DNA of 64,000 bases from Octopus sinensis. Taxonomy: Eukaryota. The notes under the pieces were generated by a model. That model made no database searches and had not been told where the DNA came from. It saw nothing but the letters and a program-made list of their open reading frames with translations. Shown here piece after piece: positions 2,474 through 58,663 of this stretch. The stretch lies in NCBI RefSeq assembly GCF_006345805.1, contig NC_043022.1:11656001-11720000 (forward strand), in the 5' to 3' direction. The translations under genes and the position numbers were made by a program. Position 1 is the stretch's first letter. Each line of letters starts with the position of its first letter.

Positions 2474-2745
2474 GGCAAGTACAAGCTATTATTAGGGACT
2501 GTAATGATAAGACATTTTCATTCTCCATGGAACATCCACCATACAAAAAACTTGAAACTGTTGATGGGAATTACAACATTTCTGTGTGCTCTTATGTTAC
2601 CTCTCTAGGAGCAATACTGTGCATTTCGTTGTGCAATGAAGACATGTGCAATGGCATATTTGGCAAATCAGATTGCATTACATTGAGCTTACCACTATTT
2701 GTCATATCATTACTTTCAGTGAAGCGACTCACAAACTTCAGTTAA
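2474..2745 (+). CDS. Ly6/uPAR three-finger gene A, proximal terminal exon 3a (C-terminal half of LU domain plus hydrophobic tail)
   Basis: Pyrimidine tract and ttcag acceptor (AG 2472-2473), phase 1. Translates (G)QVQAIIRDC-x28-C-x10-C-x3-C-x4-CNGIFGKSDCITLSLPLFVISLLSVKRLTNFS*, with the LU terminal CN motif and an NIS sequon. Paralog at 51406-51677. The upstream exons lie outside the window. Confidence 0.88.
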
Positions 2746-3177
2746 CTCTTTAATCATTGTCAGTCCTACCAGCCATGATTTCAATATTAGTTCACAGACG
2801 TTGTTTTCCACATTTTATTGGTTTATATTAAGGGTATTTATTTAATTGACACCAGAAAGATTAACAGTAAAACCTGTAGGATGGCAATGAAGAAGAAGAA
2901 AAATACTAAACTATTGTCAGCTTCATTACAAATTCAAATATTATCAAATAAAATAAACCTGTCATACTTTAAAGAAAGAAACAAAGACTTGACAAAAGAA
3001 TGGACAAAGAATGGATTGAAAGAAGGAAGAAAGAAAGACAAAGAGTTTTGTTGAGTTCAGTTTGTCATCACATTCATTCACAATATAAAGATAAAACAGA
3101 GTCATCTGGCTTTCTACATTCAAAGGTCACATCCTGTCATGGTCAACTGTACCTTTCTTCCTTTCCAGAACCTATAA

Positions 3178-3194
3178 AATAAAGAATCAATAAA
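3178..3194 (+). promoter_or_regulatory. Candidate polyadenylation signals for exon A3a
   Basis: Two AATAAA (3178-3183, 3189-3194). The A/C paralogous similarity ends about 55 nt downstream. The same signals occur at 52123-52139. Confidence 0.5.
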
Positions 3195-3267
3195 ATAATA
3201 GAGCCATTTTAATTGACTCTCTCTCACACCTGCTATCAAAATTCCTGGTTTTATGCCTGTATTAGAA

Positions 3268-3735
3268 ACAATTGGCTGAAGCATCAGCATGCCAGGCAAA
3301 ATGCTTAGCATCATTTCATCTGTTCTTACATTCTGAGTTCAAATTCTGCCGAGGTCGACTTTGCCTTTTCATCCTTTCGGGGTCAATAAAAGAAGTACCA
3401 GATGAACACTGGGGTCATTGTAATCAACTCATCCCCACCTCCCCCAATCTTCCCTTGTGACAAAAATTTGTAATCATTATTATTATTATTATTATTATTA
3501 TTACTATTCATGAAGGTGGCACGATGGCAGAATCCTTAACATGCTGGGCAAAATACTTAGTGGTGATTCATCCATCTTTATATTCTGAGTTCAAATTCTG
3601 CTGAGGTCAACTGTGCCTTTCATCCTTTCAGGGTTGATAAAATAAATACCAGTTGAACATTGGGGTCAATGTAATAGACTAACCTCCTCCCCTCAAATTT
3701 CAGGCTTTGTGCCTATAGTAAAAAGGACTGTGGCA
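3268..3735 (+). mobile_element. Cephalopod-type SINE copies (two in tandem; family has more than 15 copies in the window)
   Basis: Conserved core ttctgagttcaaattccgccgaggtcgactttgcctttcatcctttcggggtcgataaa with (ATT)n flanks. Other copies near 4880-5600, 19522, 23168, 26198-26835, 28302 (-), 43330 (-), 43890 and 46051. Confidence 0.8.
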
Positions 3736-3799
3736 AATAAATGAAATCATTATTATTATTATTATTTACTTTTAATCTGCATGTTTGTTACAATCACTC

Positions 3800-4850
3800 A
3801 CCGAGACACACCCAGTGTCCTAGGGCAAGTGAAGAATAAAGGACGTTACAGAATGGGTGAAAGCTTGTGGAGGGGAAATAGCAGGGGCAGTAGCAAAATA
3901 TCTTCATGTAATACAACACATACATTTAAATTGATAGCGTTTTTCTAAGGATGTGGGCAGTACTTGTCAGCACAATCTTTTAGATTTCTCTGAGACATGG
4001 TTATCCTGGGATAATATCTAGATGTTTCTGATATCCCTTTCTTATCATACCTAGGGTACCCACAATAACAGGAACAATTCTCGCTTTAAGATGCCACATC
4101 TTTTGTATTTCAATTTCCAGGTCCTTATATTTACTTAATTTGTCAAATTCCTTTATAGATATATTTTTATCAGTGGGAACACTACATCTGTTAGTCTACA
4201 AGTATTTTCTTCTCTGTCTTTAATGATTATGTCTGGTCAATTATCCTGGATCATTTTGTTGGTGTTGAAAGGAAAATCCCAAAGAATAGTGACATTTTTA
4301 CCTTCAACAACTGGTCCACGATTATATTCATACCAATAAGCAGGAGTGCTGATTTTGTAGTGTTTACATATTTTCCAATGTAAATACTGTTCTACACTAT
4401 CATGGCAATTTTTGTATTCATTTGGTGTCAGCACAAGCCATGCCAAGATGAGATGGTCTATTGTTCCATCAAATGTATCACAGAATCTGCATTTAGGATT
4501 AGAACCATTTTGAAGAACGTTAGCCTTGTAGTTTATGGTATGCAAGCTTTTAACTTGTGCCGCCAACATGAAACCTTCAAATCTCTGTTTTCAGTCCTGA
4601 GCTTCTCAGCCACTGATGGGTTGTTGTTTGATCTACATCAGCATTTCGGCTTCAAAGTATATACTGTCTATGCAGAGGCTTCTGGCTCCACCACACCTCA
4701 ATTTGTTTTTGCAGTCTGTTTGATCTGTTTTGCTTTTTCCATGGCAGGGGTTTCAGGTTCTTCATCTAATTCAGGGTTAATGCCAAGTTCCCTTGCAAAT
4801 TTGCAAGCTCCCTTGACAATAGAATGTGACTTTTTGCTACTTTCATGTTA
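3800..4850 (-). mobile_element. Decayed R4/Dong-like non-LTR retrotransposon 3' part (CCHC plus restriction-like endonuclease)
   Basis: ORF 4237-4569 reads AAQ...PKCRFC...TIDHLI...HD...YLHWKICKHY...ILWDF, followed by a PDII-like segment with stops and frameshifts. Confidence 0.75.
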
Positions 4851-56068: not shown

Positions 56069-56902
56069 TAACAGAAAGGACACTAGTATTATACAAAAGG
56101 TAAGTTACCAGTAATAAACAACAGAAGATATAATAGTTATCATACAACACATAGTGTTGCTGATATTGGAGCTCAACACAGCCCAGTGACTTATCAGATC
56201 CTGTTAACCAGCCTGGCTGAAACCGGCTCTGGCTCTGAGTACAAATGTCTTGTTTTCAAAGATTTTAAACTAAAATCTTCCACCAAACCTTAATCACAAT
56301 TTATGTTCCTAACACTAGCTGAATGATAACTAAGTTATTTTAAATTGAAAGAAGCACAGAGCGTCTCAAAATAAATACAGTAACGAAAGACAGTAATGCA
56401 AGACAACCTGGAAGACAGAAGTTAACTGGTGATGATAAGTGATAGTGATGATGATGATGATACTCACGTTACATACAACAAAAGATTTCAATCTCATCAT
56501 ACACAGCACCTGATTTCACACAAGGATTGTGCAATTCTCGGTATGACAAGTAAGATGAAACAGTATCACATATAATACTATTATTATCCATTTCAAGAAA
56601 TGACACAGGCATTGTACAACAGATATAACAGTAAGTATAGCATTATACAGTCACCAGTTGTGATAACAGCACTGCACAACACCAAATATCACACTAGAAT
56701 TACATATATCAACAGATATGACAACAGTATGATACAATATGAGCATTATATACCAAATATAGTAATAGCATTATACAACTCCACATATGAAAATAAAATT
56801 ATGCAAGACCAACTTTTCAGACACTGAGGTGTCCAGAACCACTTGTAATCTACATTAATTTTCACTGATGTACAGGTACCTGTATTTTTATGTAATTATT
56901 TA

Positions 56903-57900
56903 AGTAGGGTGTGCATTAGGGTGGGTGGTGAAAAGTGAGTGGTTTGATATGAAGGTGGAATTAAGACAGAGTTGTGTGATGTCTCCATGACTGTTTAATT
57001 CATATATGGATGGTGTGGTGAGAGAGGTAAATGCTAGGCCCTTTGATAGGGAAGACCAAATGGTAGGAGAAAATGGAGAGAAATGGCAGGTGAGTCAGAT
57101 GTTGTTTGCTGATGATACAGCACTTGTGACAGATTCGGAATAGCAATGAAGGAAACTGGTGGTAGAGTATGGAAGAGTGTGAGAAGAGGAAACTGAAAGT
57201 GAATGTAGCTAAGAGTAAGGTGATGAGATGTTCAAGAGATGGAATGGCTAGTAGGATGGATGTGAGTATAAATGGTGATATGTTAAGGGAGGTGAGTGTT
57301 TTTAAGTATCTGGGAATACATGTGATGGCGGAGGGGGGGGTTGGCTGAGAAAGTGGGATATAGAGTGAGAGTAGGGGGGGGGTAAGATACTTGGTGTTGT
57401 GAATGGTATACTGAGAGATAAAAGGTTGAGTATGAACGCAAAATGAAGGGTGTATGAGGGCATGATTGTGCCAACAATGTTATATGGTGCAGAGACGTGG
57501 GGGCTGAGAGAGGCAGAAAAGAGGCGACTAGATGTGTTTGAGATGAAATATTTGAGGGCTATGGTTGGTGTGACATGGATGGACAGGATGAGGAATGAGG
57601 ATGTGTGAAGGTGAGCAGAAATGAGAGAATAGCTAACAACCAAAATGGATAGATTAATGTTGAGGTGGTTTGGCCACGTGGAGAGGATAGAAGAGGAATG
57701 GATGGTAAGGAGGAGTGATGAAGGCTGAAGTGGTAGGCAGCAGAACCAGAGACAGACCAGGGTTTGTGTGGATGGATGGAGTGAGGAAAGCTTTGGTGGT
57801 TAGAGGTGTTGGAGTGAGAGAGGCAAGAGAGTTTATAAATGATAGGAAAGCTTGGAGAGTGTTTGTGGACAGATGAGTGAATTTGATGTTGCTGAAAGGG
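56903..57900 (+). mobile_element. RTE-type LINE RT fragment, present in gene C intron but not at the paralogous gene A position
   Basis: GLRQSCVMSP.LFN, LFADDTALV, FKYLG, LYGAETW, LRWFGHVER motifs with stops. Confidence 0.82.
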
Positions 57901-57994
57901 GTACGGAACCAGCACGATGCAGCGGGGGTAAACCAGTGTATGCTGCCAGGCCCAGCTGCTGATATTAGGTGTTGTGCTGATATTGTGTGTGTGT

Positions 57995-58300
57995 TGTGGA
58001 GGCACATGGCCTAGTTGTTAGTGCAGTAGACTCGCGGTCGAGGGATCGCAGGTTCGAATCTCAGACCTGGCGATATGTGTGTTTATGAGCGAAACACCTA
58101 AGCTCCACGCAGCTCTGGCAGAAGGTAATGGCGAGACTTCTGCTGACTCTTTTGCCACAACTTTCTCTCACTCTTTCCTCCTGCATCTTGCAGCTCACCT
58201 TCGACGGACCGGCGTCCCGTCTAGGTGGGGAACCTACACGCCAAGAAACCGGGAAACTGACTCTTATGAGCCAGGCATAGCTCGAGAAGGAACAACCAAA
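57995..58300 (+). mobile_element. tRNA-derived SINE
   Basis: tggaggcacatggcctagttgttag...ggttcgaatc head, similar to the element at 6441. Confidence 0.75.
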
Positions 58301-58400
58301 TTGTGTGTGTGTGTGATTGTCATATTTGCATGAATATTTGCCAACAAATATTCCTATGCATCTATCTATATCTCTTTTCCTTTTTCCTTTTCCCCACCAG

Positions 58401-58663
58401 GTGAGATATTCAGCATCATCAGAGACTGCAACCAGCAACAGTTCTCATTCAACACTGGTCTGAATAAATACAAAATCTTCCAATACCTGAATCCATCCAA
58501 AAACACCACACTGTGCACAATCAGTAGCTGGTCCCTTATCTGTGTCACCGTGTGTGACACAGAGATGTGTAATGCTCCATCCAAAGGCCATCAGCCAACA
58601 TCTGTCACTGGACTTTGGTTCCTGACCATTCCACTTTCCACCACTATCAGTTGGTTCTTTTAA
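58401..58663 (+). CDS. Ly6/uPAR gene C, distal alternative terminal exon 3b (not in ORF track)
   Basis: ccccaccag acceptor, phase 1. Intact ORF (G)EIFSIIRDC...NTTLCTISSWSLICVTVCDTEMCNAPSKGHQPTSVTGLWFLTIPLSTTISWFF*, with 4 aa differences from 12929-13191. Confidence 0.88.

What the first reader, a model, noticed from the sequence alone, without database searches (positions are those of the whole stretch)
2474..58663. Split three-finger genes: each Ly6/LU gene has one N-half exon and two interchangeable C-half terminal exons
Seen in sequence: six LU C-half exons (2474, 12929, 28612, 36663, 51406, 58401) but only two N-half exons (22253, 46829) and two signal exons, in the order [3a,3b] [1,2,3a,3b] [1,2,3a,3b]. 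I found no LxCxxC exon between any 3a and 3b. All six have strong phase-1 acceptors, an I/LIRxC start, a CN motif, a hydrophobic tail and an intact stop, despite TE-filled surroundings. Established: canonical LU pairing is C1-5, C2-3, C4-6, C7-8, C9-10, so the junction falls in finger II and the C4-C6 bond bridges the two exons. Inference: alternative last-exon choice swaps half of finger II, finger III and the GPI signal onto a constant finger I, giving two very different three-finger proteins per gene. I am not aware of this intra-domain modular diversification being described for Ly6 clusters, but I could not search the literature.
Basis: partly seen in the sequence, partly recalled or inferred. 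Interest (0 to 1): 0.92.

Follow-up and report, generated by a model that had tools for sequence, protein, structure and literature searches.

The report
Octopus Ly6 genes with swappable halves
Three neighbouring octopus genes for small three-finger surface proteins each carry two intact but very different versions of the exon for the back half of the protein, so one gene can probably make two different proteins, an arrangement already reported for a human gene of the same family.

Summary
The window lies in an octopus cluster of quiver/sleepless-like Ly6/uPAR (LU) genes. Over 364 kb there are 5 N-half and 8 C-half exons, with no hidden N-half exon between paired C-halves. The two C-halves of a gene are only 28-32% identical, yet the B-type ones are 79-94% identical to their O. 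bimaculoides counterparts. RefSeq already lists both B-type C-halves as isoforms X1/X2 in two species. Contigs of 3 of 4 runs begin at the acceptor of distal exon 36663, with overhang lengths that fit exon 22253 exactly (letters not shown). No structure could be predicted. Verdict: real, a new variant of a known kind.

The parts
2474..2745 (+). Proximal C-half terminal exon of gene B' (Cys 6-10, hydrophobic tail, stop). Its signal and N-half exons lie upstream of the window (window coordinates about -22496 and -6978).
   Evidence: RefSeq LOC118760862 isoform X1 = P0003
12929..13191 (+). Distal C-half terminal exon of gene B'
   Evidence: RefSeq LOC118760862 isoform X2 = P0005; 94% identical to the O. 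bimaculoides X2 C-half
18496..18550 (+). Signal-peptide exon of gene A (coding part), phase-1 donor
   Evidence: start of P0001 and P0004
22253..22429 (+). N-half exon 2A (Cys 1-5), 177 nt, phase 1-1
28612..28868 (+). Proximal C-half terminal exon of gene A (5 Cys). A few residues shorter than its paralogue in A'. Its first bases rebuild a donor 9-mer identical to the 2A donor. Use in this copy not seen.
   Evidence: joined to 2A only in an O. vulgaris predicted protein (P0009) and, as orthologue, in O. bimaculoides P0011
36663..36895 (+). Distal C-half terminal exon of gene A, 3 Cys, lacks the 7-8 pair, finger III about 14-16 residues shorter. Single copy in the genome. Contig cover continues in pieces to about 39386 (likely 3' UTR).
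42816..42858 (+). Signal-peptide exon of gene B (coding part), phase-1 donor
   Evidence: identical in protein to the B' signal exon
46829..47005 (+). N-half exon 2B (Cys 1-5), 177 nt, phase 1-1. Also the acceptor of the annotated 2A>2B read-through.
   Evidence: (X6 record 26)
51406..51677 (+). Proximal C-half terminal exon of gene B. Contig cover in pieces from 52160 to about 54650 in 4 of 4 runs (likely long 3' UTR).
   Evidence: (X6 record 29 starts at 51407); P0001
58401..58663 (+). Distal C-half terminal exon of gene B
   Evidence: RefSeq LOC115224789 isoform X2 = P0004. Outside the stretch on which runs were laid.

Best explanation
A tandem cluster (C, A', B', A, B) of quiver/sleepless-like, probably GPI-anchored single-LU genes. 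Like other LU genes, they split the domain over two phase-1 exons at the tip of finger II. In the A and B lineages the third exon is present twice, the two copies have diverged to about 30% identity, and both were kept intact. A transcript either ends after the proximal exon or skips it and splices to the distal one (alternative terminal exon choice: polyadenylation after the proximal exon competes with use of the distal acceptor). The mature proteins share finger I and the first strand of finger II, and differ in the second strand of finger II, finger III and the anchor signal. The 4-6 disulfide would join the constant and the variable half. The A-B unit was later duplicated as a block. A' then lost its distal exon to an LTR retrotransposon, and A appears to favour the distal exon, which suggests the two copies have split the isoforms between them. 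Shown: exon anatomy, absence of extra N-half exons, colinear duplication, database isoforms, splicing into 36663. Inferred: identity of the upstream exon from contig lengths, polyadenylation competition, fold, disulfides, GPI anchoring. Function is inferred from the family only: surface modulators of nicotinic receptors or Shaker-type channels, as for Drosophila quiver/sleepless (PMC6600238).
For: Exon counts of 5 N-half and 8 C-half in 364 kb. Isoform pairs share an identical N-terminus up to the junction Gly: P0003/P0005 74 aa, P0001/P0004 137 aa, O. bimaculoides P0012/P0002 137 aa, each pair under one locus name. B-type C-halves are conserved across species (88% and 94% for 2474 and 12929) while a gene's two C-halves are 28-32% alike. 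Contigs of X1, X10 and X5 start at 36662 with 72, 72 and 206 unplaced letters; a 31-mer graph simulation gives 72 for 2A>36663 with A' expressed and 206 with a fork at the 1A donor, against 28 for a direct signal-exon join. X6 record 26 spans 46826-47006 with 6 letters before and 1 after, which fits 1B>2B>51406-type if its one differing letter is at 46982 (that place is not shown). B and B' are colinear through introns at 84-95%. All 10 Cys columns are C in 73-74 of 74 family members. QVR matches 49 of 74 members.
Against: No run laid shows both partners of one N-half exon. In X1, X10 and X5 a surviving 2A>28612 fork would have cut the overhang to 27 letters, so 28612 is rare, absent or pruned there. 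In X6 the 2B contig runs one letter past the point where 51406 and 58401 part. The overhang letters are not printed, and 2A'>36663 gives the same 72. The runs' RNA status is the tool's guess, and exons 22253, 28612 and 58401 were outside the laid stretch. RefSeq isoforms are computed models whose read support I did not see. No database protein joining 2A directly to 36663, or 1B+2B to 51406, appeared. Only 1 of 7 full-length proteins passes the QVR cut-off.
Confidence: 0.78

Rival explanations
1. One functional last exon per gene. The second C-half is a leftover of a neighbouring gene that lost its signal and N-half exons, or a dormant duplicate as in snake 3FTx genes, and is reached only by splicing noise.
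For: Snake 3FTx genes carry duplicated exon 3 of which one is pseudogenised (PMC10421932). Each run laid shows one partner only. A' lost 36663. 28612 has a short in-frame deletion against its paralogue. The ~30% identity of the pair equals that between C-halves of different genes, so origin by gene duplication followed by N-half loss is as likely as exon duplication.
Against: All six exons are intact. Both B-type exons are 79-94% conserved in O. bimaculoides and annotated as X1/X2 there too. For 58401/12929, pN 0.020 < pS 0.055, but on only 7 differences. The rival is most plausible for 28612 alone.
Confidence: 0.15
2. A and B form one long combinatorial transcription unit. All coding introns are phase 1, so exon 2A can join any of four C-halves or exon 2B, and the N+N+C read-through is a main product. 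Re-splicing from the donor rebuilt at the start of 28612 could drive the skipping.
For: RefSeq merges A and B into one locus with 1A+2A+2B+C-half products in both O. sinensis and O. bimaculoides. The start of 28612 rebuilds a donor 9-mer identical to the native 2A donor.
Against: A 2A>2B fork would give 29 letters, not 72. The X6 contig of exon 2B starts with signal exon 1B. No 2A>51406 or 2A>58401 product was found. The rebuilt donor may be a by-product of a Gly-Lys codon pair: 6 of 8 C-half exons begin with GT. An unpaired extra N-half with 5 Cys is unlikely to fold (inference). Read-throughs of this form are known in LYPD2-SLURP1.
Confidence: 0.15
3. Assembly artefact: N-half exons were dropped from the intervals, or A'B' and AB are uncollapsed haplotypes.
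For: The region is rich in microsatellites and transposon pieces.
Against: The window has no N. The O. vulgaris predicted protein P0009 runs 2A, 28612, 36663 in the same order with no N-half between, and P0007 covers A' and B'. O. bimaculoides has the same B isoform pair and two B-type N-halves (P0016, P0002). A'B' and AB differ by 3-15% in introns, with large insertions. Contig ends in X6 fall where B and B' first differ, so both occur in one sample.
Confidence: 0.03

Closest known systems
Human LY6K (third exon duplicated twice)
   Same: An LU gene with several copies of exon 3 behind one exon 2, 'all three isoforms apparently functional' (PMC10421932 section 6). The same intra-domain swap of the C-half.
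   Different: That paper marks only some LY6K forms as secreted. Here both alternatives end in a hydrophobic, anchor-like tail and are about 30% identical. The trait recurs in three genes and, for B, in two species. I did not compare LY6K sequences, and found no second paper on its isoforms.
Snake three-finger toxin genes with duplicated exon 3
   Same: Four-exon structure with an extra exon 3 in a tandem LU cluster
   Different: There the extra copy is pseudogenised and no protein was found. Here both copies are intact, and the products look membrane-anchored, not secreted.
LYPD2-SLURP1 read-through
   Same: Exons 1+2 of one LU gene joined to exons 2+3 of the next, the same as 1A+2A+2B+C-half (P0001, P0004, P0002, P0012)
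   Different: Mammalian and described as likely mammal-specific; here it is annotated in two octopus species. Its abundance here is unknown and it was not seen in the runs laid.
Quiver/sleepless (Pfam QVR, PF17064) and its molluscan relatives
   Same: Best Pfam family and best Atlas look-alikes, 27 of 30 hits, score 0.94. Named relatives in Lottia, Potamilus, Haliotis and Argonauta. Ten-cysteine pattern with terminal CN.
   Different: Scores are mostly below the curated cut-off, so this is a divergent molluscan subfamily. Channel or receptor binding is untested. Among the 130 proteins held, only octopus pairs share an identical N-half with different C-halves.
uPAR domain I and other LU domains lacking the 7-8 disulfide
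   Same: The 2A+36663 product and gene C lack the cysteines aligned to positions 7 and 8
   Different: PMC6600238 reports the loss as very rare, in first domains of multi-LU proteins, and says single-LU proteins aggregate when it is deleted. Here it would be a natural single-domain form with a shortened finger III.

Membership tests
Ly6/uPAR (LU, three-finger) domain genes | Three coding exons (signal, N-half, C-half with anchor signal), phase-1 introns, inner intron at the tip of loop 2 (PMC6600238) | tested here: met
   the intron falls between Cys5 and Cys6; definition
Ly6/uPAR (LU, three-finger) domain genes | Ten cysteines, Asn after the tenth | tested here: met
   5+5 Cys and CN for the products with 2474, 12929, 28612, 51406, 58401; each column is C in 73-74 of 74 relatives
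Ly6/uPAR (LU, three-finger) domain genes | Ten cysteines, for the 2A+36663 product | tested here: not met
   8 Cys; the pair aligned to positions 7-8 is missing. A known rare variant, so it lowers 'canonical LU', not 'LU-derived'.
Ly6/uPAR (LU, three-finger) domain genes | Three-finger fold with disulfides 1-5, 2-3, 4-6, 7-8, 9-10 | not tested
   No model was obtained. The only solved-structure match is LYPD6 (6gbi) at E 0.38, and the Atlas holds no model.
Ly6/uPAR (LU, three-finger) domain genes | GPI-anchor signal in the last exon | tested here: inconclusive
   29-33 aa tails with a hydrophobic stretch, KD 1.3-2.6; no GPI predictor was available
Quiver/sleepless (PF17064) | Match to the QVR profile above the curated cut-off (27.3 bits) | tested here: inconclusive
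   5 of 7 full-length proteins hit (E 1e-7 to 0.06), 1 of 7 above the cut-off; 0 of 6 single exons hit; 49 of 74 relatives at E <= 0.01
Quiver/sleepless (PF17064) | Modulates Shaker K+ channels and nicotinic receptors | not testable with these tools
   Function of the fly protein is from PMC6600238; nothing was tested here
Alternative terminal exons from a duplicated exon 3 (LY6K type) | Two or more intact exon-3 copies behind a single exon 2 | tested here: met
   Genes B', A and B; 3 of 5 genes in the cluster
Alternative terminal exons from a duplicated exon 3 (LY6K type) | Both junctions used in transcripts | tested here: inconclusive
   Both are annotated for B and B' and in O. bimaculoides. 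In runs, one partner per N-half exon was seen.

The most novel reading that the evidence does not exclude
The A-B unit is a regulated, modular three-finger cassette: two promoters, two N-halves and four deeply diverged C-halves, all in the same phase, combined by tissue-specific last-exon choice (possibly by re-splicing from the donor rebuilt at 28612). It would give anchored channel or receptor modulators with different finger II/III surfaces on one finger I. One main product would be a stable single LU domain without the 7-8 disulfide, which the reviewed literature says should not fold.
Probability: 0.2. Interest if true: 0.72.

Novelty: new variant of a known kind. Interest (0 to 1): 0.45.

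Why it matters
If both isoforms are made, each pair is a natural chimera experiment: the same finger I with two different finger II/III surfaces. That would let one map which fingers set target choice in quiver-like channel modulators. It is also a living, intact example of the exon-3 duplication step that PMC10421932 (section 13) proposes for the origin of secreted three-finger proteins, kept in an invertebrate lineage across at least two species. The 8-cysteine 36663 product tests the claim that single LU domains need the 7-8 bond. The arrangement itself is not new, and four of the junctions are already in RefSeq.

Tried and rejected
Structure prediction: no model was obtained, so fold and disulfides rest on alignment and literature. 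Run search: no holder is on record as RNA; 4 of 24 listed runs were laid. The lay output was dominated by repeat-derived rows: no exon-exon joint appears among the 15 joints shown (435 not shown), and only 32 of over 40,000 pieces were listed. X6 shows no depth at 36950, which proves nothing. A hidden N-half exon between paired C-halves was rejected; the best extra N-like hit in the window (41869-42024, E 3.7, with stops) is at chance level and lies outside those intervals. A direct signal-exon>36663 join was rejected: it predicts 28 letters and a start at 36661. Trees of C-halves (20 rows) and N-halves (15 rows) did not resolve the order of duplications; only the paralogue groups were supported (two C-half rows were cut short by my parser). 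pN/pS between paralogues rests on too few sites to show selection. The genome-wide QVR search gave 11 matches elsewhere and none in this cluster, so it was no control for how common double C-halves are; I did not examine those loci. C-half-only relatives (such as P0094, P0096, P0068) are intron read-through frames, not alternative N-halves. Earlier findings of this scan: none in 3 look-ups. Literature: 9 searches gave no paper on this octopus cluster. PMC6502960 (passages), PMC4133805 (passages) and bioRxiv 10.64898/2026.06.23.733212 (passages) added nothing on duplicated exons, except that LYNX1 and SLURP2 were once taken for splice forms of one gene. No supplements were opened; those of PMC10421932 may detail the LY6K isoforms.
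Full report
Observation. The signal exons are at 18496-18550 and 42816-42858. The window is G000:C26:11656001-11720000. Protein hits on a contig of the same length are named Octopus sinensis. 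I fetched 200 kb upstream and 100 kb downstream and searched each stretch with half-domain HMMs cut from an alignment of 74 of the proteins held. In 364,000 bases there are 5 N-half and 8 C-half exons, and the next hit has E 1.3. The cluster reads C [1 N, 1 C], A' [1, 1], B' [1, 2], A [1, 2], B [1, 2]. Exons 2474 and 12929 belong to B', whose signal and N-half exons lie upstream of the window. No N-half exon or remnant lies between any pair of C-halves.

What the proteins are. Joined products already exist in public collections. Their best Pfam family is QVR (quiver/sleepless, LU clan): 5 of 7 proteins hit, 1 of 7 above the cut-off, and 49 of 74 relatives hit at E <= 0.01. The Atlas gives QVR clusters for 27 of 30 hits. 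A profile search found 120 representatives. Of the 10 looked up, 6 carry names, from Argonauta, O. bimaculoides, Lottia, Potamilus and Haliotis, so this is a molluscan subfamily. All ten cysteine columns are kept in 73-74 of 74 members. PMC6600238 (section 4 and passages) states the three-exon plan, the intron at the tip of loop 2 and the bonds 1-5, 2-3, 4-6, 7-8, 9-10. That each LU gene is 'split' this way is the family norm, not a peculiarity. The fold itself was not modelled; the only solved relative found is LYPD6 at E 0.38.

Are both C-halves used? Database evidence: RefSeq lists LOC118760862 X1 and X2 (gene B', identical first 74 aa, then 2474 or 12929), LOC115224789 X1 and X2 (identical first 137 aa, then 51406 or 58401) and O. 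bimaculoides LOC106879162 X1 and X2. These are computed models; that they usually rest on RNA alignments is my recollection, and I did not see their support. Conservation: the two C-halves of a gene are 28-32% identical, whereas the O. bimaculoides counterparts of 2474 and 12929 are 88% and 94% identical. Runs: I laid 4 of 24 listed runs, from 4 studies, on 36420-54880 only; they are contigs and their RNA status is a guess. In X1, X10 and X5 a contig starts at 36662, the acceptor of exon 36663 plus one shared letter, with 72, 72 and 206 letters that do not fit the genome there. The letters are not printed. A 31-mer graph simulation returns exactly 72 if exon 22253 is spliced to 36663 while the paralogue A' is also expressed, and exactly 206 if the contig runs through the whole exon to a fork at the signal-exon donor. 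A direct signal-exon join predicts 28. The paralogous exon 2A' joined to 36663 would also give 72. In X6 one contig covers exon 46829 with ends that fit signal exon 42816 before it and a 51406-type exon after it, and another starts at 51407, 30 bases before the first difference between 51406 and 2474. Exon 36663 is single-copy in the genome.

Evidence against a simple reading. The same simulation shows that a surviving 22429>28612 fork would shorten the overhang to 27, and a 22429>46829 fork to 29. So in these three runs gene A uses the distal exon only, or its other forms were too rare to survive assembly. No run laid shows two partners for one N-half exon, and 58401 lay outside the stretch. 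Exon 28612 is joined to 2A only in an O. vulgaris predicted protein and, as orthologue, in O. bimaculoides P0011; its paralogue is the sole last exon of A'. 'Interchangeable' is thus well supported for B and B' by annotation, and only half shown for A.

History. B and B' are colinear through their introns at 84-95% identity, and so are A and A', so the A-B unit was duplicated after the exon pairs arose. In A', homology to A stops about 220 bases before exon 36663 and resumes at 39083. The gap holds frames with zinc-knuckle, RNase H and integrase matches, that is an LTR retrotransposon. A' has therefore most likely lost the distal exon and kept the proximal one, while A seems to favour the distal one; this suggests partition of isoforms after duplication (inference). 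Trees do not show whether the pairs arose by exon duplication or by gene duplication with loss of the front exons. Misassembly is unlikely, because O. vulgaris and O. bimaculoides models show the same order and pairs.

Exon 36663 has three cysteines; alignment places the loss at the 7-8 pair, with 14-16 residues of finger III. Gene C and an Argonauta protein show the same three-cysteine C-half. PMC6600238 calls loss of 7-8 very rare and says single-LU proteins aggregate when it is deleted. RefSeq also joins exon 22253 to exon 46829 in both species, giving signal+N+N+C products. Finally, the first bases of 28612 rebuild a donor 9-mer identical to the native donor of exon 22253, which would allow re-splicing to a further acceptor; 6 of 8 C-half exons start with GT because of the junction glycine, so this may be incidental.

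Mechanism. Most likely (0.78), alternative terminal exon choice: cleavage and polyadenylation after the proximal exon competes with splicing to the distal acceptor. Each outcome gives an in-frame, anchored three-finger protein with constant finger I and a different finger II/III surface and anchor signal. By family, the likely role is modulation of nicotinic receptors or potassium channels; this is untested. Rivals are a leftover second exon (0.15, most plausible for 28612), a larger combinatorial unit spanning A and B (0.15, not exclusive of the first) and misassembly (0.03).

Comparison with what is known. PMC10421932 (passages and sections 6 and 13) reports that many snake 3FTx genes have a duplicated, pseudogenised exon 3, that human LY6K has its third exon duplicated twice with all three isoforms apparently functional, and that LYPD2-SLURP1 is a read-through of exons 1+2 with exons 2+3. 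Both architectural features seen here therefore have vertebrate precedents. What differs is that both copies are intact and anchor-tailed, deeply diverged, repeated in three genes, kept in two species for B, and that one lacks the 7-8 pair. Nine literature searches found no paper on this octopus cluster; the library lacks most subscription journals, and no supplements were opened.

Verdict. Real, probably functional, independently evolved, and partly annotated already: a new variant of a known kind, interest 0.45. The boldest reading not excluded, a regulated combinatorial cassette with a stable 8-cysteine product, has probability about 0.2 and would merit about 0.72.

Noticed in passing
L011:4350-10000 (about 30-36 kb upstream of the window): An LTR retrotransposon on the minus strand (zinc knuckle, RNase H, integrase matches) sits where gene A' lacks the equivalent of exon 36663.
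   Followed up: partly
L009:3160-5600 (gene C, about 55-57 kb upstream of the window): A further LU gene with a short N-half and a single C-half of three cysteines (no 7-8 pair). Argonauta protein P0035 has two C-halves of the same kind.
   Followed up: partly
window 51406-52177 against 2474-3245: The paralogous exons differ at 24 bases in the LU-coding part but at none in the tail and at 2 of 487 in the 3' flank. This suggests gene conversion of the tail and UTR, or fast change in the fingers.
   Followed up: partly
window 22253-22429 against L010:6702-6878: Exons 2A and 2A' differ at 7 bases, all non-synonymous, 4 of them in the last 12 bases next to the tip of finger II.
   Followed up: no
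proteins P0022/P0047 and P0027/P0036: Pairs that share only the first 20-21 residues (signal exon) and then carry different whole LU domains. P0022 is Haliotis rufescens LOC124148664 isoform X2. This hints at a second kind of alternative splicing in this molluscan subfamily; the sources of the other three were not looked up.
   Followed up: no
window 32001-32591 (-): Mariner-type transposase fragment (Pfam Transposase_1, E 2e-21) between 28612 and 36663, with a 91% copy about 52 kb upstream of the window.
   Followed up: partly
window 52700-54500 (-): Fragments that look like a non-LTR retrotransposon (recalled resemblance; no Pfam match) lie inside the region covered by contigs behind exon 51406 in 4 of 4 runs.
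   Followed up: no
window 21107-21215: About 100 bases of degenerate TTAGGG telomere-like repeat in intron 1 of gene A.
   Followed up: no
L016-L018 (about 14-35 kb downstream of the window): A tandem array with a period of about 1.3 kb, seen as evenly spaced identical weak hits.
   Followed up: no
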